Shown here in pieces: positions 10,532 through 27,812 of a DNA stretch of 64,000 bases. Source of the DNA: Bacteroidales bacterium (GTDB taxonomy: Bacteria; Bacteroidota; Bacteroidia; Bacteroidales; UBA10428); the NCBI GenBank assembly GCA_016938235.1, contig JAFGVA010000068.1:36096-100095 (forward strand), in the 5' to 3' direction. The notes under the pieces were generated by a model that saw nothing but the letters and a program-made list of their open reading frames with translations, had not been told where the DNA came from and did no database searches. Each line of letters begins with the position of its first letter. Positions within the stretch are counted from its first letter, which is position 1. A program made the translations under genes and the position numbers.

Positions 10532-10538
10532 TTTATAC

Positions 10539-10570
10539 AGAAAAGCGTCTTAAATTGACGCTTTTCTTTT
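10539..10570 (+). terminator. Rho-independent terminator
   Basis: AGAAAAGCGTC (10539-10549) / GACGCTTTTCT (10557-10567) with a 7-nt loop and trailing TTT. Confidence 0.7.
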
Positions 10571-10630
10571 GAATAACTTTATTATAAAAGCATTTCATTT
10601 TTTTATATCTTGCTGGCAAATAGGCAAATC

Positions 10631-13384: not shown

Positions 13385-14677
13385 ATGGCAAACATCGAAG
13401 TGACTCTTCCCAGTCTGGGAGAAGGCGTAATAGAAGCAACCATAACCAGATGGTTAGTTGAGCCAAATTCACAAGTAGAAGAAGATACCCCTATTGCAGA
13501 GATTGCTACCGATAAAGTAGATTCAGAAATACCATCTCCGGCAAATGGAATATTCATTAAAAGTTTTTTTTCTGAAGGTGAAATACCCAGGGTTGGCGAT
13601 GTTATTGCTATTATTCAAACCAGTTCAGAGCTTGACGACCAAGTCGATGAAACACTTATTTCTTCTGAAATAAACGAACAACAAACTCCCGACAAAAAAA
13701 CTCCTGAGCTTACCTCAATTCAGAAAACAAATAAAACGGTATCGGAGAATGAGTTAATCATTTCAACATTTATAAGACATTACGCTGGCCAAAGAGGAAT
13801 TTCTTTCGATGAATTGAAAGGAATACAGGGTTCAGGAGCTAATCATGAAGTTACCAAAACAGATGTTCTGAATTATTTCAAGACAAGGAACCCGATTTCA
13901 TCAGCAGAAAACTCACCCATGAAAAAGCTTGTGGGTTTTAATATGCCAAAGCAGACAGATTATATCCCTAAAGAAGGCGAGGAAGTCGTCGAGTTGGGGA
14001 AAACCCGGAAGCTTATTGCAGAACACATGTTAAAGTCAGTTCTGCAGGCGCCGCACGTTACTTCGTTTATCGAAGTCGATATTACAAGTCTGGTTCAGTG
14101 GCGGGAGCAAAATAAACATCGGTTTAAGAAGGAGAACGGAATTAACCTGACATATACACCGATAATCACCGAGCTGGTTGTTCGGGCACTAAAAGAATAT
14201 CCGCAAATTAATTCTTCTTTATTTGGCGATAAGCTGATACTAAAGAAGTATTTCAATATTGGAATAGCAACAGCATTGCCAAACAACGACTTAATTGTGC
14301 CCGTGGTTCGCGATGCCGATAAGAAAAGCCTTTTAAAATTAGCCATTGATATTGCTGATTTAACAAACCGGGCCCGTGAGAATAAGCTCAAACCTGGTGA
14401 AACTTCTGGAGGGACATTTACAATTACTAACCTGGGGCAGGTTGGAAATGTGAGTGGTACACCAATTATTAATCAGCCCGAATCGGCAATTCTTGCTGTT
14501 GGCACAATACAAAAAAAACCGTGGGTAGTTAATGCTGATGGACAGAACTCTATTGGCATCAGGGATATTCTTACACTTTCTCTCAGTTATGATCACCGGA
14601 TTATTGATGGAATTTTAGGGGGTTCCTTTTTGAAACGAATCGGGGAGCTTCTGGAAACATTTTCAGCCGTAGTATAA
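13385..14677 (+). CDS. 2-oxoacid dehydrogenase E2 component (dihydrolipoamide acyltransferase)
   Basis: Lipoyl domain (IAEIATDKVDSEIPSP), a peripheral-subunit-binding segment, and a catalytic domain with LSLSYDHRIIDG. Confidence 0.92.
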   Translation: MANIEVTLPSLGEGVIEATITRWLVEPNSQVEEDTPIAEIATDKVDSEIPSPANGIFIKSFFSEGEIPRVGDVIAIIQTSSELDDQVDETLISSEINEQQTPDKKTPELTSIQKTNKTVSENELIISTFIRHYAGQRGISFDELKGIQGSGANHEVTKTDVLNYFKTRNPISSAENSPMKKLVGFNMPKQTDYIPKEGEEVVELGKTRKLIAEHMLKSVLQAPHVTSFIEVDITSLVQWREQNKHRFKKENGINLTYTPIITELVVRALKEYPQINSSLFGDKLILKKYFNIGIATALPNNDLIVPVVRDADKKSLLKLAIDIADLTNRARENKLKPGETSGGTFTITNLGQVGNVSGTPIINQPESAILAVGTIQKKPWVVNADGQNSIGIRDILTLSLSYDHRIIDGILGGSFLKRIGELLETFSAVV

Positions 14678-14751: not shown

Positions 14752-14759
14752 TATTTTTG
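14752..14759 (+). promoter_or_regulatory. Candidate Bacteroidota -7 promoter box (TAnnTTTG)
   Basis: TATTTTTG lies 27 nt upstream of the ATG at 14786. Only the motif match supports this call. Confidence 0.35.
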
Positions 14760-14785: not shown

Positions 14786-17700
14786 ATGAAAGTTTACTTA
14801 CCTCAACTATTATGTGCATTTTTTCTTATCCTGTTTTCACGCACATCTGTTTCTCAAGAAGATTATTCACCAAAGGAATGGTTCGTCGAAGCTGAATCCT
14901 ACTTTCTGTTTGAGGAATATAAAGATGCGGTGCCTCTCTATCAGCGAATTCTCAGGGATGAGCCGGATAATTTCAACGTAAAGTATAAAATAGGTATTTG
15001 TTACCTGAACGATCCTTATCAGAAAGAAAAGTCTATAAAATACCTTGCTGAAGCAGCCGAAAATATTAATGTTAACTACAAAACAAATTCATACAAAGAG
15101 AAATTGGCTCCACCCGAGGTCAATTACTATCTTGGACAAGCGTACAGGATAAATGGAAACTTAAACAAAGCACTGGAGTTCTATGCCGAGTTTAAGAGGA
15201 ACATGGATCAGGAAATTTTTGACCTAAATGTTGTAAATGATGAAATAGCTGCATGTCAGATGGCAAAACAGCTTATTCTTAAACCGGTTTATGTTAAAGA
15301 AAATAATATTGGAGAGGAAATAAATTCGCGCTTTGCCGATATTAATCCAATTATGTCGGGAGATGGTAAAACAATTGCCTTTACAAGAATTATGCAGTTT
15401 TATGATGGTGTATTTGTTTCTAAGAAGGATGAGCAGGGAAACTGGTCACCACCCTATAATCTTACTCCAGACTTTACTGTAGATGGCAGTTCGTATTGCA
15501 CAGGCTTATCTTATAGTGGCGATGAAATATTCGTTTACCGAAGCGATAATTTCGATGGAAACATCTATTCCAGCAAATTCAAAAACGACAGGTGGGAACC
15601 GCTGCAGAAGTTAAATGATTTTATTAATACCAAGTATTGGGAATCTCATGCTTCCCCATCGCCCGATGGAAAGTATCTTTATTTTACATCGAACCGAAAA
15701 GGAGGCTACGGAGGTCTTGATATATATAAATCGCTTAGAAAAGCAAACGGAGATTGGAGCGAACCAGTTAATCTTGGACCTATTGTAAACTCAAGCTATA
15801 ATGAAGAAACGCCTTTTGTATCAAATGACAACAAACTCTTTTTTAGTTCGTTGGGACACAGCACAATGGGCGGATACGATATCTTTGTAACAGAGCTAGT
15901 TGGCCCAGAAACCTGGGCAAGGCCTGTTAACATGGGGTATCCGGTTAATACAACCGACGATGATTTGTTTTTTGCGCCTGTACCTGGCAATGAGTATACA
16001 GGTATTTATTCTTTTTATAACGAGGCAAACACTTATGGTTTAAAAGATATTTTTCTGGTTAAGGTATTCAATTCAGTCTTACCCCGGACTTTTACTATAA
16101 AAGGAGATTTGAAGACCCCGGAACCCGATCTTTTAACCAATGGAGAAATTAAAATTTCGATAATTGATAACCAGGCCGGAAAAATTATTCAACAGGTAGA
16201 GCCTAATGCCGATGGCAGCTTTAGTTTAAATGCACCACAGGGTAGTTACCAGTTGTTAATAGACGGTGTTGGACTGAAGCCCGTTTCTCAGCCACTTGAA
16301 TTAAGCCTGAACCAGGAGGAGGAATTGATTGATCTTCAAACCATATCAACTCAACTGGCCGAAGTTGGTGAAGAAAATTTAATAAAAGCAACAACAATTC
16401 CGCCTAAAATTGAGATTGTTGGCAAGGAGTATATCATTACAGATTCAGTTCCGGTAAATATTAACCTCATTCTTGCGAAAGGAAATGATTTAATAATAGA
16501 ATCATTTGTAAACGGCAAAAAAACGAATCATGAAGAATACAGAATTTCTAAAGAAAATTTTACTTATGTATTCAATCCTAAACCCGGAGATAATAAACTG
16601 GTATTTACCACTGTAGATAAAAACAAGAATATTTCAACTCAGGAAATGACTGTTTTTTATGAACCTGAAGTTATAAAAGAGCCTGTTGCCGAGCTTGGAG
16701 AAGAAGAAAAAGTTTCAGAACAGATGTCGGGCATTGCCTTAATAACAAATTCAGTTAAGCTTCAGAATTATCTTGAATCGCTGGAAAGCCTTAAATACAA
16801 GAACTTGTTAGAACTGTATGAAATGCTGTCGGTTAATGCTGATGAGAATGACTTTTCAAAAGAAGAAATTAACCAGTTGTTTGCGATAATGCTAAGCCAG
16901 AGAAATAAATCTGAATTCATTGAAAGCACGAATAGTGTTAATGGACTATCCGCATTCTCAACCAACGATTCTGTTGTTAAACAGTCTGATATCCCATTGA
17001 TAATTATTAAGAATCTGAAGCCTGAAGTTGAGGACGAGCAGGTTAAGTTCTACAATGGGTTGAACAGCATTATTAATGGCAATATCAATAATGCTGAAGA
17101 TAAATTAAAGTACCTGCTTTCATTTTCTGACAAAGATTTAACCGAAGATGAGATTCAAGCTTTAAGCTTATTGTCAGGCGAAGAACTGTATAAGGAACTT
17201 TCTAAAACATTCGGAGCGGATATTACTGCTGAAATGATTGAAAAGGCTGCATCTACACAGGAATTAAAGCAATTCTATTTTAACCTGCTCATGTCTGCTA
17301 ACGGCACCTTGTTAGATATTCTGAATAATCTTAATATGGAAGAAAAGAATATTTCAAATTCCATAGAATTAGTAGATTATTTGTTTATGCAAGCTGAAAG
17401 TGGTGTTATCAGCGAGGCTGAATTGATACAGCAAATTGAGGAAGCAAAAAAGAACGAATCACAAAATATTCGTTTTTTTCATGAAGCTTTAGCAAATGCT
17501 GCAACAGGCGAATTAAAAACCGGCCTAAATGAAATATCACCCAATCAGAAGAGTATAAACGGTATTATTGATGAATTACTTAAAAATGCTCAGTCTAAAG
17601 GATATGGACGTACTGAAGTCTATAATCTTTTATTAAAAATGATTGGTATTCAGAACGTTGATGAGTTTATTGAAAAAATGCAGCATTTCAGCAAAGGCGA

Positions 17701-17998
17701 TATCGATTCACTACTTTCAACTTTAAAAAGAGAGCATTATTCTCTGCCGGTTGAAATTATTCAATACCTGCTTTCAGAATCGGCCTATTTCGATTATACA
17801 GAATCTGATATAAACGACCTGCTAATCAGAATGCTGTTAGAAAAAGGTATCGACAAGTGGGAAACTACAGGGACTGCCTCTGAATCAGAAAAAATAATAA
17901 AGAGAAACCGATACATTACAACCCTGATACTGGCAAATGTATTTATTATTATTCTGTTTATATTATTCTGGAGACGTAGAAAGAAGAATAAGGAGTAA
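14786..17998 (+). CDS. PorE-like paralog 1: TPR + PD40/TolB-type beta-propeller + CarboxypepD_reg-like domain + long helical region + C-terminal TM anchor
   Basis: Signal peptide, then TPR motifs (YKIGICYLN, YLGQAYR). Propeller motifs YLYFTSNRKGGYGGLDIY and GHSTMGGYDIF. Ig-like segment GSFSLNAPQGSYQLLIDG. C-terminal TM helix YITTLILANVFIIILFILFW followed by RRRKKNKE. Confidence 0.85.
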   Translation: MKVYLPQLLCAFFLILFSRTSVSQEDYSPKEWFVEAESYFLFEEYKDAVPLYQRILRDEPDNFNVKYKIGICYLNDPYQKEKSIKYLAEAAENINVNYKTNSYKEKLAPPEVNYYLGQAYRINGNLNKALEFYAEFKRNMDQEIFDLNVVNDEIAACQMAKQLILKPVYVKENNIGEEINSRFADINPIMSGDGKTIAFTRIMQFYDGVFVSKKDEQGNWSPPYNLTPDFTVDGSSYCTGLSYSGDEIFVYRSDNFDGNIYSSKFKNDRWEPLQKLNDFINTKYWESHASPSPDGKYLYFTSNRKGGYGGLDIYKSLRKANGDWSEPVNLGPIVNSSYNEETPFVSNDNKLFFSSLGHSTMGGYDIFVTELVGPETWARPVNMGYPVNTTDDDLFFAPVPGNEYTGIYSFYNEANTYGLKDIFLVKVFNSVLPRTFTIKGDLKTPEPDLLTNGEIKISIIDNQAGKIIQQVEPNADGSFSLNAPQGSYQLLIDGVGLKPVSQPLELSLNQEEELIDLQTISTQLAEVGEENLIKATTIPPKIEIVGKEYIITDSVPVNINLILAKGNDLIIESFVNGKKTNHEEYRISKENFTYVFNPKPGDNKLVFTTVDKNKNISTQEMTVFYEPEVIKEPVAELGEEEKVSEQMSGIALITNSVKLQNYLESLESLKYKNLLELYEMLSVNADENDFSKEEINQLFAIMLSQRNKSEFIESTNSVNGLSAFSTNDSVVKQSDIPLIIIKNLKPEVEDEQVKFYNGLNSIINGNINNAEDKLKYLLSFSDKDLTEDEIQALSLLSGEELYKELSKTFGADITAEMIEKAASTQELKQFYFNLLMSANGTLLDILNNLNMEEKNISNSIELVDYLFMQAESGVISEAELIQQIEEAKKNESQNIRFFHEALANAATGELKTGLNEISPNQKSINGIIDELLKNAQSKGYGRTEVYNLLLKMIGIQNVDEFIEKMQHFSKGDIDSLLSTLKREHYSLPVEIIQYLLSESAYFDYTESDINDLLIRMLLEKGIDKWETTGTASESEKIIKRNRYITTLILANVFIIILFILFWRRRKKNKE

Positions 17999-18049
17999 GA
18001 CATTTACTATTTTTTTAAGGCGGATATTGATATCTCTAAACCACTAAAG

Positions 18050-20053
18050 ATGGACAATATAAAGAGCAAACTACTTGAAATTGTTTCAACTGCATTTTTA
18101 GTGATATTCGTTTCTTATAGTACTTCTGCCCAAATATGGATTGATAATCAGGCAATTTACCAAGAAGCTGAAGAATATCTTATTGGTGAAGAGTATGAAG
18201 AAGCACGTCCTTTGTATCATTTAATTGAAAAAAGAGGCATACAGAATGCTCATATCAGCTATAAAATTGGCTTATGTCTGTTTATGTCTCATGGAGATCT
18301 TTCAAAAACAATTACTTATCTTGAAGAAGCAGCAAAAAATGCAACCTTAAATTACACCAATAGTTTTGAAGAACTAAATGCCCCTGTCGAATCTGTTCTG
18401 TTGCTGGGTAGGGCATATCATAAAAAGGGTGAATTAGAAAAGGCAATTTCGACTTATGAGCGTTATAAAAAATTCGGAAGTGAAAAAGCTAAAATACAGT
18501 TAGCAGATTATTACATCTCTGAATGTAATAATGCTTCAGCATTGCTTAAAAATCCGATAATAGCTAAAATTGAGCCACTGGCAGCATCAAACCAGTTCTC
18601 CTTGTATAATCCTATTATTACTGCTCAGCACGAGATTTTCTTTATGGAGAAAAGAAAATTCTATGACGCAGTGGTTTCTGCAATGGTTGAAGGTGACAGT
18701 CTCTCAAAAGAAAATAATATTACCCCCGACTTAGGTTCCGATGGAAATTTATTTCTATGTGGCTCATCGGCAGACGGTAATATGCTGATCTTTGTAAGCT
18801 ATAATGCAGGCAGGGGGTATGATTTGTATTATTCCGAGAAGGGAAAGTCTGGGAAATTCAATAAAGCCGAACCATTTCCCGATGTTATTAATTCGGGTTT
18901 TAACGAAACATCTGCATCTGTTTCGAATGACGGCACCTTGTATTTTTCAAGCAACAGATTGGGTGGATATGGTGGAACAGATATATACAGTTCAGAAAAA
19001 ATTGAAGGTGTCTGGTCGCAGCCTGAAAATCTTGGCAATAATGTAAATTCGGCTTTTGATGAGGAGTTCCCCATGTTATCATTTGATAATTCCCGCTTAT
19101 TTTTTACCAGCGAGGGGCATCTTAACATGGGTGGTTATGATATCTTTTTTTCTAACAGGAATACTGACAACAGCTGGTCGAAAGCAATGAATGTGGGCAG
19201 CCCTGTTTCAACAACAGCTGATGATAATTTTATTTCTACGACACAAGATTCCACCATTTTTTATACCCATCGTATTTCTCCCGAATTTGAAAACAGAGAC
19301 ATTATTTACAGGGTAAATATTGCATTTTCAGGAAAAAATTTGCAGGAATTTATTAAGGTTTCCGGTAACCTGATTTTTAATGACACCCTACCGCCAAAAG
19401 AAGTTGAGTATATTATAAACAGGGAAACAGAAAATAAAGAGGTTATTACGTCGAAAACAAATAAAGACGGAGCATACGACTTTATACTAGAACCAGGGGC
19501 ATACATTCTAAGTTTTAAGTATAACGATACCATTACAGCTTCCTCAAAACTGAATTTGAAAAGAAATAACCTTTCGGCTGACATTTATATGGAAAGTCCT
19601 GCCTGGAATTTAGAAAACACAATGAAGGAGCTTAAGGTTCAACACCTCGAAATTCAGGATATTCTTTTTGAATTTAACAGTTCAGAACTTACCGCACAGT
19701 ATGTAGAGTTACTTAATATTATTGCTAAAGAAATTAAAGAATACCCGGATTACAGTTTGGAAATTTCTGGTTTTACTGACGCATTGGGTACCGAAGAATA
19801 CAATTATGTTCTTTCAAAGAGAAGAGCAGAATTTGTCCTTAGCTACCTGGTTGCTAAAGGTATCGATAAAACCAAAACCAAAATAAATGCCTTGGGTGAA
19901 GACAATCCAATTGCAAGGAATACTGATAAAATGGGCAATGATTTACCCGAAGGAAGGAAATATAACCGAAGAGTTTCGCTGGAGATAAATATTGACTCTG
20001 AAACATTAAAAATAACGTATAAAGATATCGTACCCTCGCAGTTAAAAGACTGA
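18050..20053 (+). CDS. PorE-like paralog 2 (full PorE architecture): TPR + beta-propeller + CarboxypepD_reg-like + OmpA_C peptidoglycan-binding domain; OmpA family protein
   Basis: 667 aa. TLYFSSNRLGGYGGTDIY and GHLNMGGYDIF. CRD-like DGAYDFILEPGAYILSF. OmpA_C motifs ILFEFNSSEL, ISGFTDALGTEEYNYVLSKRRA, NRRVSLEI. Confidence 0.88.
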   Translation: MDNIKSKLLEIVSTAFLVIFVSYSTSAQIWIDNQAIYQEAEEYLIGEEYEEARPLYHLIEKRGIQNAHISYKIGLCLFMSHGDLSKTITYLEEAAKNATLNYTNSFEELNAPVESVLLLGRAYHKKGELEKAISTYERYKKFGSEKAKIQLADYYISECNNASALLKNPIIAKIEPLAASNQFSLYNPIITAQHEIFFMEKRKFYDAVVSAMVEGDSLSKENNITPDLGSDGNLFLCGSSADGNMLIFVSYNAGRGYDLYYSEKGKSGKFNKAEPFPDVINSGFNETSASVSNDGTLYFSSNRLGGYGGTDIYSSEKIEGVWSQPENLGNNVNSAFDEEFPMLSFDNSRLFFTSEGHLNMGGYDIFFSNRNTDNSWSKAMNVGSPVSTTADDNFISTTQDSTIFYTHRISPEFENRDIIYRVNIAFSGKNLQEFIKVSGNLIFNDTLPPKEVEYIINRETENKEVITSKTNKDGAYDFILEPGAYILSFKYNDTITASSKLNLKRNNLSADIYMESPAWNLENTMKELKVQHLEIQDILFEFNSSELTAQYVELLNIIAKEIKEYPDYSLEISGFTDALGTEEYNYVLSKRRAEFVLSYLVAKGIDKTKTKINALGEDNPIARNTDKMGNDLPEGRKYNRRVSLEINIDSETLKITYKDIVPSQLKD

Positions 20054-20157
20054 TAATTTCCTGCCGAATTAACCGTTTATTGATTTTTTAAATTTGAAGT
20101 TTTTTTGTTACCTTAAAATTCTTAGCTATTAATTGCTTGTACAAAAGCAGTTTTAGG

Positions 20158-20165
20158 TATATTTG
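20158..20165 (+). promoter_or_regulatory. Candidate Bacteroidota -7 promoter box (TAnnTTTG)
   Basis: TATATTTG lies 27 nt upstream of the ATG at 20192 and overlaps the GTG start used in the ORF track. Confidence 0.4.
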
Positions 20166-20191
20166 TGTTAAACTGGCTTAAAATCACCAAA

Positions 20192-22042
20192 ATGAAGCGA
20201 ACAATTTTACTTCTGACTTCCCTTGTGTTATTATCATTGTTAACATACTCTCAGAAAAAAGAAATATCTATCAAAGAATATTTTACTGATGCAGAGTTCT
20301 TTTTTGCTGCTGAGGCCTATGTCGATGCTTTGCAGGATTATATGGAGGTTTATAATCGAGGGTATCAGCAAAATCCAAACATTAATTATCATATCGGATT
20401 ATGCTATTTAAATATACCCGAGCAGCATGCAAAATCTATTGATTATTTAAAAATAGCAGCTCAAACCACCAGTATCCGTTATGTCGGATCAACTCTGAAC
20501 GAAAGCCATGCACCTATTGATGCCTTTTTGTATTTGGGAAATGCATACAGAGTATTATATCAACTTGATAATGCTATAACCGCCTATAATGAATATCTGG
20601 GAATTTTACCTGATGCTGCAAAGGAAGAAAGAAAGTTTGCATTAAAGCAAATTGAAGCCTGCAATATTGCCAAAGAGTATATCAATGATCCTGTAAGCGT
20701 TAAATTCACAAACCTTGGCAATCTTATCAATACCAACAACATTAACCGTAACTGTGTTATTTCGGGCGATGGTTCAACAATGGTGTTTATGACTAAATTA
20801 CCCTTTTACGAGGGTATATTTATGTCCAAAAGGCGGGGGAATAATTGGTCTCGGCCTGAAAATATTACACCGCAATTACAATCAGACGGAGATCAGATGG
20901 TTACAGGTATCTCATACGATGGTAGCACATTGCTGCTTGTAAAACAAGATGAGTTTGATAGCGATGTTTATTTAAGTACTTACGAAGACGGTAAATGGAA
21001 AAAATCAAAAGATATTGGTAAGGTTATAAACTCAAGATATTGGGAGTCTCACGCTTCCTTATCGAAAGATGGCAAAACATTATACTTTACAAGTAACAGA
21101 CCCGGTGGTATTGGAGGAATGGATATTTATGTTTCAAAATTATCAGCGGTCGGCACGTGGTCAGATCCTGAAAATATTGGAGGTCAGATAAACACAATCT
21201 ATAATGAGGATACCCCTTTTATAACCGAAGACGACACCAAATTATATTTCAGTTCACAAGGAAATTCAAATATGGGAGGATACGACTTTTTTGTATCAGG
21301 GAAATCCGATTCTGGATGGACAGGAGCAGAAAACTTAAGGTATCCTTTATCTACAACCGATAACGATTTGTTTTTCTATCCTTTGCAGAATGGCGAAATC
21401 GGTTATGTGTCGAAGATACTTGATGACAGCTACGGTAGTTTTGATATTTACGCCATTGAGTATGTAGATGAAACTGTTACGGAAGAAGCAATAACCGCTG
21501 AGGTCGAAGATGAAGTTGATGAAGAATCAATACTTCAGGAAGATGAATCGGTTGAAGAAACAGAGTTCATAGCAGATGAAGAAAAACCAGGGCAGCTTAC
21601 TGATGAACCTCAATCTGTTCAGGTAGAAGTTAAAGCTGTGTTGTTTGGATTCGACAGGTATTCATTGAACGATGAGGCCAAGGTTGAGGTTGATAAATTA
21701 ATTGAGCTGTTAAAAAAGGAAGGGAAAATAACAATTCAGATATTAGCTTACACCGATGCTTTAGGACCTGCAGAATATAACCTGGCATTGTCGGAAAGAA
21801 GAGCGAAAGCAATTGCGGAATATATTATCAGCAAAGGAATTGACCGCGCCCGCGTTAAGGCTGTAGGTAAGGGAGAGGTAGATTTTATTGCGCTTAATAC
21901 AAATCCCGATGGTTCTGATAATCCTGAAGGAAGAAAGTACAACCGTAGAGCAGAATTTAAACTTGCCGGATTCGATAAAAACCGAATTGAAATCAGAGAG
22001 AAACTTATTGTCCCCGAGGCTTTTCGGGTTTTTGAAAAATAA
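20192..22042 (+). CDS. PorE-like paralog 3: TPR + beta-propeller + acidic linker + OmpA_C domain; OmpA family protein
   Basis: Signal peptide MKRTILLLTSLVLLSLLTYSQ. TLYFTSNRPGGIGGMDIY and GNSNMGGYDFF. OmpA_C motifs VLFGFDRYSL, AYTDALGPAEYNLALSERRA, NRRAEFKL. The ATG at 20192 is preferred over the GTG at 20165. Confidence 0.88.
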   Translation: MKRTILLLTSLVLLSLLTYSQKKEISIKEYFTDAEFFFAAEAYVDALQDYMEVYNRGYQQNPNINYHIGLCYLNIPEQHAKSIDYLKIAAQTTSIRYVGSTLNESHAPIDAFLYLGNAYRVLYQLDNAITAYNEYLGILPDAAKEERKFALKQIEACNIAKEYINDPVSVKFTNLGNLINTNNINRNCVISGDGSTMVFMTKLPFYEGIFMSKRRGNNWSRPENITPQLQSDGDQMVTGISYDGSTLLLVKQDEFDSDVYLSTYEDGKWKKSKDIGKVINSRYWESHASLSKDGKTLYFTSNRPGGIGGMDIYVSKLSAVGTWSDPENIGGQINTIYNEDTPFITEDDTKLYFSSQGNSNMGGYDFFVSGKSDSGWTGAENLRYPLSTTDNDLFFYPLQNGEIGYVSKILDDSYGSFDIYAIEYVDETVTEEAITAEVEDEVDEESILQEDESVEETEFIADEEKPGQLTDEPQSVQVEVKAVLFGFDRYSLNDEAKVEVDKLIELLKKEGKITIQILAYTDALGPAEYNLALSERRAKAIAEYIISKGIDRARVKAVGKGEVDFIALNTNPDGSDNPEGRKYNRRAEFKLAGFDKNRIEIREKLIVPEAFRVFEK

Positions 22043-22063
22043 TACTTTACAAACAAGAAATTG

Positions 22064-22091
22064 AAAAGTCATACCCAGGTATGGCTTTTTT
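22064..22091 (+). terminator. Rho-independent terminator after paralog 3
   Basis: AAAAGTCATAC (22064-22074) / GTATGGCTTTT (22079-22089) with one G-U pair and a 4-nt loop, running into a T-run. Confidence 0.65.
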
Positions 22092-22187
22092 TATGTTTGA
22101 ACAGAAAATGTTAATATTACTTTATTAATATATTTAGGATATTGTATCTATTTTTCATTAATTTTATAATAATATAACATTAGGAAG

Positions 22188-23474
22188 ATGAGGAATTTAC
22201 TGTTTTCGCTTTTTGTATTGGGGTTTTGTAATATAGGTTTCTCACAACAATACACTCCGGAAGAGTTATTTGAAGAAGGACAATATTTCTTATTACGGGA
22301 AGATTATAAAGAAGCTTTGTATTTCTTTCGCCAGCTAACAGAAATCTATCCTGAGAATGCTAACTATAACTTTAAAGCCGGACAATGTTATTTAAATATT
22401 CCCGGGCAGGAATACCTGGGGGTTGAATATCTCGAAAATGCAGTTAAATCCATTGTTCCAAAGAAAGAATATAAATCCAGAAGTTCATCGGAGCAAAATG
22501 CACCCTTGCATGCCCAGTTTTATTTAGGGAATGCATATCGTGCTGCCGGTAATTTATACCAAGCTTTAGATTACTATAATAAATTTCTTGATTCACCATT
22601 TTTCGAAGGAAACTATAACAGGAATGTTGTTGAGCAGGAAATAAAGTCATGCGAAAGAGCGAAAATTATACAGGATGCACCAATCGAAATGGAGGTAACG
22701 GCCTTAGATTCCAATATAAACACTTCTTATTCAGAAAGCTCACCTGTATTAAGTGCCGATGGAGAAACTATGGTGTTTATACGAGGCTTAAAATTCTATG
22801 ATGCCATATTCATCGCACATAAAACAGATAAAGGCTGGAGTTCGCCGGAAAATATTAATGAGCAGATAGTTTCTGATGGAGATTTGTATCCAACAGGCTT
22901 AAATTCCGATGGCACTATAATGCTATTAACTAAAGAAATTAACGGTAACGCAAACATTTTTATTTCATATTTTAATGGAGAAAAATGGAGCCAGGCTAAA
23001 GAATTACCTGGGAAGGTTAATACATTGTATGCCGAAACATTTGCTTCTTTTGGTGCCGATAATGAAACCATTTTTGTGGTAAGCGACAGAAGTTCAACAC
23101 ACGGTGGAACTGATATTTACCTTTCGAAGTTAAACAGCAAAAACGAATGGAGTAAACCTAAAAATTTAGGTAAATCCATTAATACAGAATTTGACGAGAG
23201 CTTTCCGATATTATGTAATTCAGGGAAAACATTATTTTTTAGTTCGAAAGGGCATTATAACATGGGAGGATTCGATATATTTTACAGTTCCAGAAATGAG
23301 AAATCATGGTTAACCCCCAGAAACATAGGGTATCCTTTGAATACTACCCGTGATGATGTTTTTTACATGGTTTTACAGGATTGTTCAAGCGGATTGCATG
23401 CGATAATCGATAAAGTTTCAGGTTTTTCAGATATTTTTGAGATAGAAGTAAAATCTGAGCTTGCTATACCATAA
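22188..23474 (+). CDS. PorE-like paralog 4: TPR + beta-propeller only (no C-terminal anchor)
   Basis: Signal peptide. FKAGQCYLN, YLGNAYR, GGTDIYLSKL, GHYNMGGFDIF. The protein ends about 45 aa after the last propeller motif. Confidence 0.85.
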   Translation: MRNLLFSLFVLGFCNIGFSQQYTPEELFEEGQYFLLREDYKEALYFFRQLTEIYPENANYNFKAGQCYLNIPGQEYLGVEYLENAVKSIVPKKEYKSRSSSEQNAPLHAQFYLGNAYRAAGNLYQALDYYNKFLDSPFFEGNYNRNVVEQEIKSCERAKIIQDAPIEMEVTALDSNINTSYSESSPVLSADGETMVFIRGLKFYDAIFIAHKTDKGWSSPENINEQIVSDGDLYPTGLNSDGTIMLLTKEINGNANIFISYFNGEKWSQAKELPGKVNTLYAETFASFGADNETIFVVSDRSSTHGGTDIYLSKLNSKNEWSKPKNLGKSINTEFDESFPILCNSGKTLFFSSKGHYNMGGFDIFYSSRNEKSWLTPRNIGYPLNTTRDDVFYMVLQDCSSGLHAIIDKVSGFSDIFEIEVKSELAIP

Positions 23475-23483
23475 AGTCTAAAA

Positions 23484-25505
23484 ATGGCTTATCTCAAACA
23501 AATAGTGCTCATTCTTTCATTTTTTCTGTTCCAGGGTATACTCAGCGAGTTATTTTCGCAGATTTCAAATACCGATAAAAACGATTACCTTACTGCCGAC
23601 GAGCATTTTGAATTTGGGGAGTATGAAGAAGCATTGCAGTTACTCGAAATTTTAGTTAAAAAATATCCGGATAATGCGAATGTAAATTTTCTCATGGGAA
23701 TGTGCCTGCTGGAAACAAAAATTAACTATAAAGAAGCAAAGCCCTATTTTGAAATTGCAATACGTGATATCGATGCTGGTTTCAGACCCGGAGATTATGA
23801 AAACACTTCAGCTCCTCCCGAGGCATTGCTTTATTATGCAGATGTTCTTCAGAGCAACAAAGAATTCAGGAATGCTTCTTTAACCTATCATCAGTACAGG
23901 GATATGATGCTAAATAATCCAAATGCTCTTGATATTGTTAACAGAAGAATAATTGGACTTGGGATATCTTACGAAGAATCGATTCGTTCCAAAGGTACAA
24001 CAATAGATAACCTGGGCAGCCCAATAAATACAAAGCTTGATAATTATAATCCTGTAATTTTTGGCAATAACAGCAGGATGTTTTTTACTTCAAATAATGG
24101 AACTCAGGACCTCATACTTTATTCCGAGCAGATAAACGGCATTTGGAATAAGCCCGTTGACCTTACTATAAATGTTGGATCAGACGGCACATTTTTTACA
24201 AGTTCCATTTCATGGGATGAGACTAAACTGGTTTTGGTAAAAAGAGACAAATATAATTCAGAACTATATTTATCTGAATTTAAGAATGGGAAATGGAATA
24301 AGGCTGAGCCATTAGATAAAAAAATAAACTCCTATGCTAATGAAACAGGAGCTTCATTTAGTAAAGATGGCAACAAAATATACTTCAGCAGCGACAGGAT
24401 GGGTGGCCCGGGAGGCTATGATATCTATTTTTCAATTAGCGAGGGTGGAAAGTGGTCAAAAGCTATACCTCTGGAAGGGGCAATAAATACAATTTACGAT
24501 GAAACTTCACCCGTTCTGACTTATAATGGCGATACCCTGTTTTTTTGTTCAAACGGGCATGCGTCAATGGGACAAAAAGATATTTTTATGACAGTTATAA
24601 CCGATAAAGGATGGAGTGCCCCAGAGAATATTGGACTGCCTTTTAATTCGGTTTACGACGAAGATTTTTATTCCTGTGTGCCTGAATATTCAGTGGCTTA
24701 TTTAAGCAGATTCGACGAAAATGGACTTGGAAAAAAAGATATACTTCGGTTAGCTTCAGTTAATTACACTTATCCCATTCCTTTTACTCCGGCTGAACAA
24801 CCCGAAATAACCCAAAAAACTGAACCGGAGGGGATTATTGAGAATGTTATAGAAATCGCGGAAGTGACTGAGCAGTTGGCTGAGATTCCTGAATTTACAG
24901 AAACGCCAATAATTACCGAAGAAATAACTGAGAAAATCGAAGAACCAGTTATAGAACCTGAAATTCTAGGCAATAACTTCATTGAGGAACAAACAGAAAC
25001 AGAACCGGACGAAAAAGAAGTTACGCCAATTCTTCAGGGCATAGAAAAGAAAAATGAAATTATTGAAATAAAAACTGAAGAGCAAGAACCTGAGTCAACA
25101 CCGATAGAAGCAAATTCTGCAGAAATAATTCAGGATGTCGTAACACCATCTTATAATGAGTCAAGCCAGGACGAAGCGGATTCATATTATGCTTACCAGC
25201 AGGAGAAAGAAGAAAAGAAGGAGGTTTATATTGCACCCAATCAAAAAACAGATCAGGACAAAAGTATTTATACGGTTCAGATAATGGCTCTTAGGAAACC
25301 ACATTCCGGGTACAATTTTAAAAACATTAAGATGAACGATTTGAAAATCTCTGAAGGTTCAGATGGTTATACACGTTATACTTTAGGGGAATATTCAAAT
25401 GCAAAAAAAGCTGCTGCGGTAATGAAAAAGATGGAGAAACTGGGATATCATGATGCATTTGTGAGGAAAATAGAAGAAATTAACAATTATCGGGATGAGT
25501 ATTGA
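23484..25505 (+). CDS. PorE-like paralog 5: TPR + beta-propeller + Glu/Pro/Thr-rich linker + SPOR domain
   Basis: KIYFSSDRMGGPGGYDIY and GHASMGQKDIF. Acidic linker. C-terminal SPOR-like segment IYTVQIMALRKPHSG..YTRYTLGEYSNAKKAAAVMKKMEKLGYHDAFV. Confidence 0.85.
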   Translation: MAYLKQIVLILSFFLFQGILSELFSQISNTDKNDYLTADEHFEFGEYEEALQLLEILVKKYPDNANVNFLMGMCLLETKINYKEAKPYFEIAIRDIDAGFRPGDYENTSAPPEALLYYADVLQSNKEFRNASLTYHQYRDMMLNNPNALDIVNRRIIGLGISYEESIRSKGTTIDNLGSPINTKLDNYNPVIFGNNSRMFFTSNNGTQDLILYSEQINGIWNKPVDLTINVGSDGTFFTSSISWDETKLVLVKRDKYNSELYLSEFKNGKWNKAEPLDKKINSYANETGASFSKDGNKIYFSSDRMGGPGGYDIYFSISEGGKWSKAIPLEGAINTIYDETSPVLTYNGDTLFFCSNGHASMGQKDIFMTVITDKGWSAPENIGLPFNSVYDEDFYSCVPEYSVAYLSRFDENGLGKKDILRLASVNYTYPIPFTPAEQPEITQKTEPEGIIENVIEIAEVTEQLAEIPEFTETPIITEEITEKIEEPVIEPEILGNNFIEEQTETEPDEKEVTPILQGIEKKNEIIEIKTEEQEPESTPIEANSAEIIQDVVTPSYNESSQDEADSYYAYQQEKEEKKEVYIAPNQKTDQDKSIYTVQIMALRKPHSGYNFKNIKMNDLKISEGSDGYTRYTLGEYSNAKKAAAVMKKMEKLGYHDAFVRKIEEINNYRDEY

Positions 25506-26031
25506 AAACAAACTAAATATTAAACTCAGAGCAGTTGAGCCAGAAGATATCGATTTATTGTTTCAGTGGGAAAATAACCAGGAAATATGGCATCTAAGCA
25601 ATACAATTACCCCTTTCTCAAGACATATTTTAACAAAGTATATCGAAACAGCACACCTTGATATATTCCAAACCCGGCAGTTACGATTAATGATAGATGT
25701 ACTTGAAAGCGGACAAAATCCAAGAACAGTTGGAGCTATTGATTTATTTGAATTTGAGCCTTTTCATCTGCGAGCAGGTATAGGTATTCTGATAAGTAAT
25801 ACCCTTGACAGGAATAAAGGGTATGCCAGTGCTGCCCTGCAAAGTTTAATCGAGTATACCTTTAAAACACTTCATTTAAATCAGCTCTATTGTAATATCG
25901 GAACCGATAATATATTGAGCATTAAGCTTTTCAAAAAACATGGGTTTACCGAGGTTGGTATCAAAAAAAAGTGGAATAAAACGCTTGCAGGTTATACCGA
26001 CGAAATGATGCTACAGTTAATAAACGATTAA
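25495..26031 (+). CDS. GNAT-family N-acetyltransferase (RimJ/RimL-like)
   Basis: LRAVEPEDIDLLFQWEN..., acetyl-CoA-binding-like RNKGYASAAL, and C-terminal KHGFTEVG. Its ATG overlaps the last 11 nt of the upstream gene. Confidence 0.85.
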   Translation: MSIENKLNIKLRAVEPEDIDLLFQWENNQEIWHLSNTITPFSRHILTKYIETAHLDIFQTRQLRLMIDVLESGQNPRTVGAIDLFEFEPFHLRAGIGILISNTLDRNKGYASAALQSLIEYTFKTLHLNQLYCNIGTDNILSIKLFKKHGFTEVGIKKKWNKTLAGYTDEMMLQLIND

Positions 26032-26216: not shown

Positions 26217-27812
26217 ATGAGGATGTGCCAAAAGTTTTTTTCTTACTTTTTCATTCTGACCTTAACTACTGCAGTTGGTGCACAAGGAACCGTTTCTTCG
26301 GTAATTCAGGAAACTTCGTGGTTAAAATCTGCGGATCAGAAAAAGTGGCAAAAGTTACTGGGGGAGCTCAATGAAGCAGAAGTTCTTCTTTCTGAAAGCA
26401 ACAGTGCCTACCTGAAAATTACCAACATGAATAATTCAGGCGATACTGATGCAGCGGGCAAACAAAAGGAGATTGAAAAAATTGAAAAAGATGCTGATGA
26501 AAAGGCGGCTAAATCACAAGACATTTTTCGTTCAGTTTATAAAAAGATGCTCGAAATTTCGGACACATACATTAGCAGTGAACAAGAACAACATACTGCC
26601 TATGCCGAAATGGTTAAATACCGGCAGGATGCTGAAGTTTTATATACCGAATATGATGCCGATAAATCGGACAATACGATTTTATCAATGGCAAATGAAA
26701 CTCAGCTTTTAGCCTTAGAGAAATCAGTTATTCTTTTTACAGTTCCGGCTTCAGGTTACCAGGTAGAAACAAAGCCACCGCGTGAGGGAGATGAGTACGT
26801 TATTAACCAGGGAATGCTGCAAAGGTTTAGTAGTTACATTTCTGATCCGAATATCCCTGACCCCTTAACATTAAACCAGTTATCAGAGATGAATAGTTCA
26901 GAAAGTGATTTTTCCTCTTTCTACCCAATGTGGCAAAATTATGTCAGTTCTGAGACAGGATTTTTAGCTGATCAGGCGCAGGAAGAAGTGCAGCCCGACA
27001 GCCTTTTAACTGCTGAAACTACTGAATTATTAGCCGAAGTTTCTCAAGAAGAAAATGAAGAGTCGTTGCATAAAGAACAAAAAGATAACATTTCAGAGAA
27101 TACTACAAAGCAAGTTGTTGAAAAACAAACGAGTGAAGATCACGAACATGACATTTTAGCTGAGCATGAAAAAGACAAAATAACAACAAGCAGCCAATCA
27201 GACATTAAAATCAGGAATAAGGCAGATTCGTATACAGAATCAAAACTTGTTTCTGGCGTATCAACCGACAATAAATATGAATTCAGGGTGCAGGTAGCTG
27301 CCAGCCGCAATCCTCTGTCGCAATCACAGATAAAAGCCATTTATTCAGGAAATCTTACTGTGGTTGAGATAAGAGAGAATAACTATTATAAATACCAGAT
27401 TACAGGTTTTAAAACAATACCTGAAGCACAAAAAGTTTGTTCGGCATCAAATGTTCCGAATGCTTATATTGAGGCTTATACTTCGTATAAACCAGCTTCA
27501 CTTGCACAAGCTGCATCGGAAACTATGACAGAAAGTACAAACAGCAAAACCCTAAGCGGAAATGATGTACATTTTGCTGTTCAGGTAGCTGCCACCAAGG
27601 TTCGTTTGGCCCCGGTTAAGCTAAAAGCAATTTACCCCGACACCGATCAACTGAATGTTGTTTTTGAGGATGGCTGGTATAAATACCAGATATATGCCGG
27701 AAATAAAATGGATCAGGCTCTGATTATTCTTAAAAACTGTGGTGTAAAAGATGCTTTTATGGTGGCCTATTCAAATGGAGAAAAAATACGTTTTTCAGAT
27801 ATAAAACATTAA
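26217..27812 (+). CDS. Secreted protein with acidic central region and two C-terminal SPOR domains
   Basis: Signal peptide FFILTLTTAVGAQG. SPOR-like units YEFRVQVAASRNPLS..YYKYQITGF and VHFAVQVAATKVRLA..WYKYQIYAG. Confidence 0.8.
   Translation: MRMCQKFFSYFFILTLTTAVGAQGTVSSVIQETSWLKSADQKKWQKLLGELNEAEVLLSESNSAYLKITNMNNSGDTDAAGKQKEIEKIEKDADEKAAKSQDIFRSVYKKMLEISDTYISSEQEQHTAYAEMVKYRQDAEVLYTEYDADKSDNTILSMANETQLLALEKSVILFTVPASGYQVETKPPREGDEYVINQGMLQRFSSYISDPNIPDPLTLNQLSEMNSSESDFSSFYPMWQNYVSSETGFLADQAQEEVQPDSLLTAETTELLAEVSQEENEESLHKEQKDNISENTTKQVVEKQTSEDHEHDILAEHEKDKITTSSQSDIKIRNKADSYTESKLVSGVSTDNKYEFRVQVAASRNPLSQSQIKAIYSGNLTVVEIRENNYYKYQITGFKTIPEAQKVCSASNVPNAYIEAYTSYKPASLAQAASETMTESTNSKTLSGNDVHFAVQVAATKVRLAPVKLKAIYPDTDQLNVVFEDGWYKYQIYAGNKMDQALIILKNCGVKDAFMVAYSNGEKIRFSDIKH

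What the first reader, a model, noticed from the sequence alone, without database searches (positions are those of the whole stretch)
14786..25505. Five tandem PorE-like paralogs that differ essentially only in their C-terminal envelope anchor
Five consecutive same-strand genes (14786-17998, 18050-20053, 20192-22042, 22188-23474, 23484-25505) share a collinear N-terminal body of about 420 aa. That body has a signal peptide, a TPR block and PD40/TolB-type propeller blades. The TPR block carries shared motifs Y.IG.CYLN and AP....YLG.AYR. The blades carry shared motifs lYF.SnR.GG.GG.DIY.S, WS.P.NLG..iN..(N/D)E and GH.nMGGYDIF, and I aligned these by eye in all five. Downstream of that body the proteins diverge completely. 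Paralog 1 has a CarboxypepD_reg-like domain, about 500 aa of helical sequence and a C-terminal TM helix. Paralog 2 has a CarboxypepD_reg-like domain plus OmpA_C. Paralog 3 has an acidic linker plus OmpA_C. Paralog 4 has nothing further. Paralog 5 has a Glu/Pro/Thr linker plus SPOR. Paralog 2 (667 aa) matches the published domain order of the T9SS component PorE (PG1058: TPR, beta-propeller, CRD, OmpA_C). Unlike P. gingivalis PorE, none of the five has a lipobox cysteine. I do not know of a described case where one periplasmic scaffold is supplied with an inner-membrane anchor, two peptidoglycan-binding chemistries, or no anchor. It suggests a family of envelope tethers or adaptors acting at different depths or sites of the periplasm.
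Basis: partly seen in the sequence, partly recalled or inferred. Interest (0 to 1): 0.8.

Follow-up and report, generated by a model that had tools for sequence, protein, structure and literature searches.

The report
Conserved array of PorE-like envelope tethers
Five neighbouring genes encode old copies of one periplasmic scaffold, each ending in a different address tag (inner membrane, cell wall twice, division-site cell wall, or none), and the same gene set recurs in many uncultured Bacteroidales, so it looks like a working but undescribed envelope-tethering kit rather than a local oddity.

Summary
Five same-strand ORFs at the stated coordinates share a collinear body of about 430 aa: signal peptide, TPR and a TolB-like PD40 propeller. 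Pairwise identity is 30-41% (E 1e-48 to 1e-103). The C-terminal calls are confirmed:
- P1 has two beta-sandwiches, a 375-aa helical domain and a C-terminal TM helix.
- P2 has a CRD plus OmpA_C.
- P3 has an acidic linker plus OmpA_C.
- P4 has nothing further.
- P5 has a linker plus SPOR.

None has a lipobox.

Three corrections apply. The copies are ancient paralogs, not near-identical genes. None reaches the NCBIfam cut-offs for PorE or CHU_0125 (90-206 bits against 600/620). The array is not unique. It sits in the same GT2-E2...GNAT slot in dozens of uncultured Bacteroidales/Bacteroidota genomes. Of 39 complete arrays, 36 have a TM-anchored member, 38 an anchorless member and 38 a peptidoglycan-binding member. 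In a tree of 225 bodies, anchor type follows clade.

My best reading is a set of subfunctionalised periplasmic adaptors that place one TPR-propeller module at different envelope layers. It may be a distributed Tol-Pal analogue. Function is inferred, not shown. I found no paper describing the array. I rate it a new variant of a known kind.

The parts
14786..17998 (+). P1, 1070 aa. Signal peptide; TPR (aa 29-165); propeller (169-428); beta-sandwich/CRD (435-516); second beta-sandwich (542-625); helical domain (647-1020); C-terminal TM helix (1044-1062) with a basic tail.
   Evidence: ORF. PD40 E 1.5e-17 and CarbopepD_reg_2 at 22.5 bits. AF2 model with pLDDT 85.7 and this domain order. More than 120 orthologs of about 1065-1100 aa at 38-55% identity.
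17915..17971 (+). P1 C-terminal transmembrane helix ITTLILANVFIIILFILFW, followed by RRRKKNKE (predicted cytoplasmic).
   Evidence: Read from the sequence. Part of the long helix 1023-1069 in the model. A C-terminal TM is present throughout the P1 clade, at 623-1152 aa.
16724..17845 (+). P1 family-specific all-helical juxtamembrane domain (aa 647-1020).
   Evidence: pLDDT about 85-95. No Pfam hit. No fold match reported for it. Only 87 hits among 1.84 billion representatives; those in full-length proteins of about 950-1100 aa lie at the C-terminal end, and about half are short fragments.
18050..20053 (+). P2, 667 aa. Signal peptide; TPR; propeller; CRD-like beta-sandwich (about aa 436-520); OmpA_C (539-647).
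   Evidence: OmpA 66.2 bits and PD40 E 9e-12. CRD supported in 8 of 11 orthologs. OmpA_C aligns to PA0833-PD with the TD..G / RRA / NRRV motifs kept.
20192..22042 (+). P3, 616 aa. Signal peptide; TPR; propeller; acidic linker (about aa 425-470); OmpA_C (484-591).
   Evidence: OmpA 68.3 bits and PD40 E 4.6e-15. Sequence. Called as 616 aa elsewhere.
22063..22090 (+). Terminator-like hairpin (12 pairs plus a T run) 20 nt after the P3 stop. It may split the array into P1-P3 and P4-P5-GNAT transcription units.
   Evidence: Consensus scan only; the number of sites is not enriched over shuffles.
22188..23474 (+). P4, 428 aa. Signal peptide, TPR and propeller only; no anchor.
   Evidence: ORF. More than 120 orthologs, nearly all 414-449 aa (three up to 489), at 47-64% identity. 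AF2 model with pLDDT 92.1 and pTM 0.86. The top 19 PDB fold matches are all TolB.
23484..25505 (+). P5, 673 aa. Signal peptide; TPR; propeller; Glu/Pro/Thr-rich linker (about aa 440-595); SPOR (596-662).
   Evidence: PD40 E 1.7e-15. SPOR confirmed.
25269..25469 (+). SPOR domain of P5.
   Evidence: 23.9 bits against the gathering score of 21 as an isolated domain. 18 of 21 orthologous domains hit PF05036. A profile hits CwlC 1x60 (E 5e-4) and FtsN 1uta.
25495..26031 (+). GNAT (Acetyltransf_3) gene overlapping the P5 stop by 11 nt. It is the constant 3' neighbour of the array in other genomes, whichever paralog comes last.
   Evidence: Pfam E 1.2e-18. Synteny in 39 complete loci. Its role is unknown.
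13385..14677 (+). 2-oxoacid dehydrogenase E2 gene, the conserved 5' neighbour of the array. It is probably a synteny landmark, not a component.
   Evidence: Pfam E 1.1e-76. Synteny.

Best explanation
The locus encodes a conserved set of anciently duplicated periplasmic adaptor proteins whose copies have taken on separate roles.

All five are exported by Sec, cleaved by signal peptidase I and not lipidated. All carry the same interaction module, a TPR domain followed by a TolB-like PD40 propeller of about five blades. Each copy is placed at a different envelope layer by its C-terminal module:
- P1 is held in the inner membrane by a stop-transfer TM helix. Two Ig-like spacers and a family-specific helical domain lie between the membrane and the propeller.
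- P2 and P3 bind the peptide stems of peptidoglycan through OmpA_C.
- P5 binds denuded (septal) glycan through SPOR.
- P4 is free in the periplasm.

By analogy with PorE-PorP and TolB-Pal, the module is inferred to bind related partner proteins, most likely in the outer membrane. Together the set would tie or position those partners relative to the inner membrane, the sacculus and the division site.

Shown here: sequences, domains, folds, predicted topology and conservation. Inferred: the partners and the tethering function.
For: - The shared body and the divergent C-termini are real.
- The TolB-like propeller and TPR are modelled with high confidence.
- OmpA_C keeps the peptidoglycan-binding motifs.
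- SPOR and CRD are confirmed with orthologs.
- There is no lipobox, and a conserved Q lies at the predicted cleavage site.
- P1 and P4 each have more than 120 full-length orthologs of closely similar length.
- In the NJ tree of 225 bodies, each anchor type forms its own clade.
- Of 39 complete arrays, 36 have a TM member, 38 an anchorless member and 38 a PG-binding member.
- PorE's propeller is reported to bind the OM barrel PorP, and its OmpA_C domain is essential (PMC12773672, PMC9143113).
- The related protein CHU_0125 maintains outer-membrane integrity (PMC5891637).
Against: - There is no experimental data for any member, and no partner has been identified.
- None of the proteins has its own outer-membrane anchor, so an OM link is purely by analogy.
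- The conserved neighbourhood also holds housekeeping genes (E2, holA, rhomboid), so gene order alone does not prove a functional unit.
- A possible terminator lies after P3.
- All related loci come from metagenome-assembled genomes.
- The tree is a midpoint-rooted NJ tree without support values.
- The P1 helical domain has no recognisable relative.
Confidence: 0.6

Rival explanations
1. The array is a distributed Tol-Pal analogue. This is a more specific version of the main reading. In Bacteroidales that lack tol-pal, the components would map as follows: P1 as the inner-membrane-anchored reach (TolA-like role), P4 as the soluble TolB-like mobiliser, P2/P3 as the Pal-like PG binders and P5 as the septal targeting unit. 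Together they would stabilise and constrict the outer membrane at division.
For: - The best fold matches of the body are all TolB.
- P5 weakly hits the tol_pal_ybgF and TolB NCBIfam models.
- The OmpA_C domains hit Pal models.
- SPOR is a division-site targeting domain (established knowledge of FtsN, DamX and RlpA).
- PMC12204202 reports no tol-pal loci in Bacteroidetes and proposes PorE as a fused CpoB-TolB-Pal system that may traffic to the septum.
- The TM, free and PG-binding triad is nearly universal in the arrays.
Against: - No TolQ/R-type motor is in the window or the related loci examined.
- The TolB N-terminal domain and the TolA-binding box are absent.
- The Pal-like members are not lipoproteins.
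- P1 has the opposite topology to TolA.
- TM-scores to TolB are modest, 0.37-0.41.
- About a third of complete arrays lack any SPOR member, for example L001.
Confidence: 0.25
2. The five are T9SS accessory proteins of the PorE type. Each would anchor a different PorP/SprF-like barrel with its type-B cargo, as proposed for the porE-like genes of F. johnsoniae.
For: - P2 has the PorE domain order.
- All five hit the NCBIfam PorE model at E 1e-26 to 1e-59.
- The window encodes a T9SS plug protein (PF17116, E 4e-33) at 59087-60334.
- F. johnsoniae carries several porE-like genes (PMC9143113, PMC12618676).
Against: - Scores are 90-206 bits against a cut-off of 600, and the CHU_0125 model scores equally or better for four of the five.
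- There is no lipobox.
- Three of the five lack OmpA_C, which is essential for PorE function (PMC12773672).
- No porP-like or type-B cargo gene was recognised next to the array here or in L001/L002. In F. johnsoniae the porE-like genes sit in operons with them (PMC12618676).
- P2's OmpA_C is closer to generic OmpA and Pal domains than to the PorE structure 6TOP (31 bits against 50-60 bits).
Confidence: 0.2
3. The array is part of a polysaccharide synthesis and export apparatus. The TPR-propeller proteins would scaffold the neighbouring GT2 and the SPOR protein-Wza-Wzc module across the envelope.
For: - A GT2 lies upstream.
- Downstream of GNAT lies a 531-aa protein with SPOR-like repeats, followed by Wza (Poly_export/SLBB) and Wzc (GNVR/AAA_31).
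- The same order occurs in L001, L007, L012 and L053.
Against: - Many arrays keep GT2/E2 and GNAT but have no Wza/Wzc within 10 kb, for example L002.
- The E2 gene separates GT2 from the array.
- No known Wza/Wzc system uses such proteins (my own knowledge, not tested here).
Confidence: 0.07
4. The copies are redundant or decaying duplicates with no distinct roles.
For: The genes are tandem paralogs. P2 and P5 evolve faster than the others: 40-45% and about 35% identity to their nearest orthologs, against 56-64% for P1, P3 and P4.
Against: - All five are intact ORFs.
- Each clade keeps its own anchor across many genomes.
- P4's lack of an anchor is conserved in more than 120 orthologs of closely similar length.
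Confidence: 0.03

Closest known systems
PorE (PG1058) of Porphyromonas gingivalis, a T9SS component
   Same: Both have TPR and a beta-propeller, and P2 shares the full order with CRD and OmpA_C. The OmpA_C domain has peptidoglycan-binding motifs. PorE is a periplasmic bridge whose propeller binds a partner, PorP (PMC12773672, PMC9143113).
   Different: PorE is a single-copy lipoprotein. The window proteins are not lipidated. They fall far below the NCBIfam PorE cut-off and form a conserved tandem set in which three of five replace OmpA_C by a TM helix, SPOR or nothing. No porP-like neighbour was recognised.
CHU_0125 of Cytophaga hutchinsonii (NCBIfam NF053607, OmpA-like outer membrane integrity protein)
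   Same: It has a TPR-PD40-OmpA_C architecture. Its model is the best-scoring NCBIfam family for four of the five paralogs. Its deletion causes hypervesiculation and OM leakiness (PMC5891637), the kind of role proposed here.
   Different: Scores here are 122-206 bits against a cut-off of 620. CHU_0125 is annotated as a lipoprotein and has been described as a single gene.
Tol-Pal periplasmic components (CpoB/YbgF, TolB, Pal) of Proteobacteria
   Same: The TPR resembles CpoB, the propeller resembles TolB (top PDB fold hits) and OmpA_C resembles Pal. The free P4 and the PG-bound P2/P3 recall TolB and Pal. PMC12204202 already reads PorE as a CpoB-TolB-CP-Pal fusion.
   Different: The modules are fused rather than separate proteins. 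There is no TolB N-terminal domain, no lipidated Pal and no TolQRA nearby. Inner-membrane-anchored and SPOR-bearing versions of a TolB-like propeller are not part of Tol-Pal.
porE-like genes of Flavobacterium johnsoniae (for example Fjoh_3950)
   Same: Several PorE-type paralogs occur in one genome. They are proposed to anchor complexes statically to the cell wall (PMC9143113, PMC12618676).
   Different: Those genes are dispersed, each in an operon with a type-B cargo and a SprF/PorP-like shuttle, and they are described as PG-anchoring. Here the paralogs are tandem, lack such partners and carry alternative anchors.
SPOR-domain division proteins (FtsN, DamX, DedD, RlpA, CwlC)
   Same: The P5 C-terminus is a SPOR domain. 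Such domains target proteins to denuded glycan at the septum.
   Different: The known SPOR proteins pair the domain with a TM segment, a lipoprotein anchor or an amidase domain, not with a TPR-propeller. Related loci even carry OmpA_C plus two SPOR domains on one body.

Membership tests
PorE family T9SS protein (NCBIfam NF052230) | Whole-protein score at or above the curated cut-off of 600 bits | tested here: not met
   P1 132.8, P2 156.5, P3 199.2, P4 129.7 and P5 90.2 bits. E2-adjacent homologs from distant Bacteroidota score 172-300 bits.
PorE family T9SS protein | Four-domain order TPR, beta-propeller, CRD, OmpA_C | tested here: inconclusive
   Met by P2 only. P3 lacks the CRD. P1, P4 and P5 lack OmpA_C.
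PorE family T9SS protein | N-terminal lipoprotein signal (lipobox cysteine) | tested here: not met
   No canonical lipobox in any of the five. Only 3 of 150 family members have a lipobox-like string, while 133 of 150 have an SPI-type small-x-Q site.
PorE family T9SS protein | Physical or functional partnership with PorP and a requirement for T9SS secretion | not testable with these tools
   No PorP/SprF Pfam hit among the window ORFs scanned or in the L001/L002 gene lists. A T9SS plug gene lies at 59087-60334.
CHU_0125 family OmpA-like OM integrity protein (NCBIfam NF053607) | Whole-protein score at or above the curated cut-off of 620 bits | tested here: not met
   P1 144.5, P2 176.0, P3 206.5, P4 121.6 and P5 121.9 bits.
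TolB (TIGR02800) | Score at or above 343 bits, and an N-terminal alpha/beta domain followed by a six-bladed propeller | tested here: not met
   Only P5 hits, at 37.7 bits. The N-terminal part is TPR helices, not the TolB N-domain. Strand count suggests about five blades. The fold resemblance is to the propeller only.
[quoted passage not shown] | Pfam gathering score of 27.2 bits, and conserved D and R of the TD..G....N..LS..RA / NRRV motifs | tested here: met
   P2 scores 66.2 and P3 68.3 bits. The motifs FTDALG...KRRA...NRRV (P2) and YTDALG...ERRA...NRRA (P3) are seen in the sequences and in the alignment to 6jfw.
SPOR domain (PF05036) | Pfam gathering score of 21 bits | tested here: met
   18.2 bits in full-length P5 and 23.9 bits for the isolated domain. 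18 of 21 orthologous domains match. The profile hits the SPOR structures 1x60 and 1uta.
CarboxypepD_reg-like domain (PF13620/PF13715) | Pfam gathering score of about 32 bits | tested here: inconclusive
   The window copies are below threshold: P1 22.5 bits, P2 16.1 bits. 8 of 11 P2-clade orthologs match PF13620 at E up to 0.1, best E 1e-8. Some P1 orthologs carry PF13620. The region is modelled as a beta-sandwich. The profile hits NOMO and carboxypeptidase M transthyretin-like domains.

The most novel reading that the evidence does not exclude
The array is the long-missing functional counterpart of Tol-Pal in environmental Bacteroidales. One CpoB-like TPR plus TolB-like propeller module is issued in inner-membrane-anchored (P1), soluble (P4), Pal-like PG-bound (P2, P3) and septum-targeted SPOR (P5) versions. 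Together these would couple the outer membrane to the inner membrane, the sacculus and the division site. The soluble P4 would act like TolB, competing with or mobilising the anchored copies.
Probability: 0.22. Interest if true: 0.85.

Novelty: new variant of a known kind. Interest (0 to 1): 0.6.

Why it matters
Bacteroidota are reported to lack a recognisable Tol-Pal system. How they hold the outer membrane to the wall and constrict it at division is therefore open. PorE and CHU_0125 are the only studied members of the TPR-propeller-OmpA_C class, and it is debated whether PorE is a secretion component or a general envelope tether (PMC12204202).

This locus shows that evolution has repeatedly re-addressed the same module to the inner membrane, to bulk peptidoglycan, to septal peptidoglycan and to the free periplasm, and has kept the set together in many genomes. 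That argues for a general envelope-architecture role for the module.

It also gives a natural set of 'anchor-swap' variants with testable predictions for localisation, partners, and division and vesiculation phenotypes. In addition, it defines an uncharacterised helical juxtamembrane domain that is restricted to the P1 clade.

Tried and rejected
1. I tested whether the ancestral E2-adjacent gene in distant Bacteroidota is a true PorE or CHU_0125. Ten such proteins all scored 172-367 bits, below both cut-offs, so the slot holds a third clade.
2. I looked for a solved full-length PorE or a close relative by sequence. Only OmpA_C and generic TPR chains were found.
3. A fold search with the full P1 model, aimed at identifying the helical tail, returned hits dominated by the propeller and Ig-like domains. 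Nothing was reported for the tail.
4. A sigma-70 promoter scan was uninformative: 61 sites against 52 expected, and Bacteroidota promoters differ anyway. TAnnTTTG boxes were noted by hand only.
5. I considered whether the P1 C-terminus is a sorting signal (PEP-CTERM or GlyGly-CTERM type) rather than an anchor. No such NCBIfam hit appeared at E <= 0.01 and no motif precedes the helix, so I rejected this as unsupported.
6. I checked whether the upstream secreted proteins and lipoprotein (8956-11356) belong to the system. The two upstream unknown proteins (8956-9675, 9668-10531) have no homolog in any of the 80 loci. The TPR protein (10610-11356) has one in only 6.
7. I could not build a tree that includes P. 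gingivalis and F. johnsoniae PorE, because their full sequences could not be retrieved with the remaining capped searches. The NCBIfam scores were used instead.
8. Literature searches for the array or for SPOR/TM versions of PorE-like proteins found nothing.

Full report
**Observation.** A MAFFT alignment is collinear over the first 420-440 residues, with 48 invariant columns. These include the quoted TPR motifs (G.C, AP) and the blade motifs (S.R.GG.GG.DIY.S; WS.P.N; GH..MGG.DIF). Pairwise BLASTP of the bodies gives 30-41% identity over about 400 residues, with E 1e-48 to 1e-103. The downstream regions share nothing except the OmpA_C domains of P2 and P3 (E 3e-26). The paralogy is therefore far beyond chance, but the copies are old and diverged. 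They do not differ 'essentially only' in the anchor.

**Domain calls.**
- Pfam finds PD40 in all five (E 1e-11 to 1e-17) and weak to moderate TPR. OmpA scores 66 bits in P2 and 68 bits in P3.
- The P5 SPOR call is below the gathering score in the full protein (18.2 against 21 bits). It is above it for the isolated domain (23.9 bits). 18 of 21 orthologous domains from related loci hit PF05036. A profile of them finds the SPOR structures of CwlC (1x60, E 5e-4) and FtsN.
- The CRD is weak in the window copies. It is found in 8 of 11 P2-clade orthologs at E up to 0.1 (best E 1e-8). A profile hits transthyretin-like and CRD domains.
- The OmpA_C domains keep the TD..G, RRA and NRRV peptidoglycan-binding motifs.

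**Structures.**
- The P4 model was built from 64 orthologs (pLDDT 92.1, pTM 0.86). It has TPR-like helices from residue 24 to 162 and a beta-propeller from 168 to 421. I count about five blades from the strands.
- Its 19 best PDB fold matches are all TolB, at E 4e-10 to 1.5e-7 with TM-scores of about 0.4, which is expected when only the propeller is shared.
- The P1 model was built from 50 orthologs (pLDDT 85.7). It shows the same TPR and propeller, then two beta-sandwiches (435-516 and 542-625). These are followed by a confidently modelled all-helical domain (647-1020) and a long terminal helix (1023-1069). That helix contains the hydrophobic stretch 1044-1062, followed by RRRKKNKE.
- No fold match was reported for the helical domain.
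- A full HMMER scan of 1.84 billion representatives found only 87 relatives of that domain. The matches in full-length proteins of about 950-1100 aa lie at the C-terminal end, and about half of the hits are short fragments.

**Topology.**
- None of the five has a canonical lipobox.
- Across 150 complete N-termini of the family, only 3 have a lipobox-like string, while 133 have a small-x-Q site.
- Q is nearly invariant at that position in the P1 and P4 ortholog alignments. This fits signal peptidase I substrates with N-terminal glutamine, a pattern I know for Bacteroidota from general knowledge.
- P1 would thus be a type I inner-membrane protein with about 1020 periplasmic residues. P2, P3 and P5 would be periplasmic wall binders, and P4 a soluble periplasmic protein.

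**The array is conserved.**
- P4 has more than 120 orthologs at 47-64% identity, nearly all 414-449 aa (three reach 465-489 aa). P1 has more than 120 at 38-55% identity and 1047-1129 aa, apart from two of about 960 aa.
- Gene neighbourhoods show the same order, GT2 - E2 - P1 - P2 - P3 - P4 (- P5) - GNAT. Eighty loci from GTDB species representatives were collected. All are metagenome-assembled Bacteroidales/Bacteroidota genomes.
- 39 loci have the array bounded on both sides. They hold 2-5 paralogs. 36 have a C-terminal-TM member, 38 a body-only member and 38 at least one PG-binding member.
- Other lineages carry further versions. One is a protein of about 830 aa with OmpA_C plus two SPOR domains. 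Others are a second SPOR clade of 548-660 aa and giants of up to 1467 aa.
- In an NJ tree of 225 bodies, clades coincide with anchor type.
- P1, P3 and P4 are the best conserved (56-64% to the nearest genomes). P2 (40-45%) and P5 (about 35%) evolve faster.
- More distant Bacteroidota genomes often have one gene of about 680 aa (body plus OmpA_C) directly after E2 (L075, L080). This suggests, as an inference, that the array arose by tandem duplication and anchor exchange from an OmpA_C-type ancestor.

**Membership.**
- All five hit the NCBIfam models for PorE and CHU_0125 significantly, but at 90-206 bits against cut-offs of 600 and 620.
- Ten E2-adjacent homologs from distant lineages also stay below both cut-offs, at 172-367 bits.
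- Only P5 touches the TolB model, at 37.7 bits against 343.
- P2's OmpA_C is closer to generic OmpA and Pal domains (50-60 bits) than to the PorE C-terminal domain 6TOP (31 bits).
- The proteins therefore share the architecture class of PorE and CHU_0125, but they are not members of either defined family.

**Context.**
- The window holds housekeeping genes: L17, enolase, citrate synthase, an E1 component and the Nqr operon. No T9SS gene was recognised among the immediate neighbours of the array.
- A T9SS plug protein is encoded at 59087-60334 (PF17116, E 4e-33), so the organism has a T9SS.
- The gene lists of L001 and L002 show no PorP/SprF family within 10 kb.
- The conserved block extends to HSDR_N, holA, a rhomboid and an aminotransferase. 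Synteny with E2 therefore need not be functional.
- The GNAT gene always follows the last paralog directly and often overlaps it, by 11 nt here.
- A hairpin with a T run sits 20 nt after the P3 stop. TAnnTTTG boxes precede P1 and P3.

**Interpretation.**
- The best-supported reading is a set of subfunctionalised adaptors that present one TPR-propeller interaction module from different envelope layers.
- Published work gives the analogies. PorE's propeller probably binds the OM barrel PorP, and its OmpA_C is essential (PMC12773672, PMC9143113). Loss of CHU_0125 destabilises the outer membrane (PMC5891637). PorE has been read as a fused CpoB-TolB-Pal system in a phylum without tol-pal loci, possibly trafficking to the septum (PMC12204202).
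- The SPOR-bearing, anchorless and inner-membrane versions found here fit and extend that idea. No motor, partner or phenotype is known, so the Tol-Pal-like model stays a minority hypothesis.
- A direct T9SS role is less likely. The reasons are the missing lipobox, the missing OmpA_C in three members and the absence of porP-like neighbours. In F. johnsoniae, by contrast, the porE-like genes sit in operons with such partners (PMC12618676).

**Novelty and limits.**
- I found no paper describing this array, or describing SPOR-bearing, TM-anchored or anchorless PorE-like proteins. The library is not complete.
- All comparative data come from metagenome assemblies, and the tree has no support values.
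- A tree with authentic PorE sequences could not be made.
- Function is inferred from domains and conservation only.

Noticed in passing
window 59087-60334 (+): A 415-aa protein with a T9SS_plug_1st domain (PF17116, E 4e-33). This shows the organism carries a type IX secretion system, although no T9SS gene was recognised next to the array.
   Followed up: partly
window 26217-27812 (+), then 27821-28609 and 28622-31021: A 531-aa secreted protein with one clear SPOR-like repeat (aa 356-412, E 6e-9 with the family HMM) and one weak one (453-516). Wza-like (Poly_export/SLBB) and Wzc-like (GNVR/AAA_31) genes follow it. The trio follows the GNAT gene in L001, L007, L012 and L053 but is absent in L002.
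   Followed up: partly
window 25495-26031 (+): A GNAT (Acetyltransf_3, RimJ/RimL-like) gene overlaps the P5 stop codon by 11 nt. It directly follows the last paralog in all 39 complete arrays, whichever paralog that is. This is a cytoplasmic enzyme tied to periplasmic proteins, and the link is unexplained.
   Followed up: partly
related loci L024, L031, L034, L036, L037, L039, L044, L047, L049, L054, L055, L070: Proteins of about 830-890 aa carry the same body followed by OmpA_C and two SPOR domains. Both peptidoglycan-binding chemistries sit on one chain. L060 has three such giants of 958-1467 aa in tandem.
   Followed up: partly
window 32588-33211 (+): A rhomboid-family protease gene lies about 7 kb downstream. 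It is syntenic with the array in 21 of the 80 loci. Rhomboids cleave single-pass TM segments such as the one in P1, but there is no evidence of a link.
   Followed up: no
window 22063-22090 (+): A 12-bp-stem hairpin with a T run lies just after the P3 stop. Bacteroidota-type TAnnTTTG boxes lie at 14752, 20089, 20158 and 22092. The array may be transcribed as P1-P3 and P4-P5-GNAT.
   Followed up: partly
window 35408-36487 (-): Another OmpA-family protein (359 aa, OmpA_C at 91 bits) lies between two ORFs of 207 and 217 aa that have no Pfam match.
   Followed up: no
window 14786-25505, N-termini of all five paralogs: All five signal peptides end in SQ or AQ, and Q is nearly invariant there in the P1 and P4 orthologs. 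This is consistent with N-terminal glutamine after signal peptidase I cleavage.
   Followed up: partly
window 3786-6899 (+) and 6952-8679 (-): A 1037-aa protein combines Reg_prop propeller repeats with a C-terminal SpoIIE (PP2C) phosphatase domain. It lies next to a hybrid histidine kinase/response regulator.
   Followed up: no
proteins P0247, P0250, P0254, P0259: Proteins of 1360-2100 aa match the P1 helical tail in 4-8 separate stretches. The helical domain therefore occurs as a repeat unit in other, unexamined architectures.
   Followed up: no
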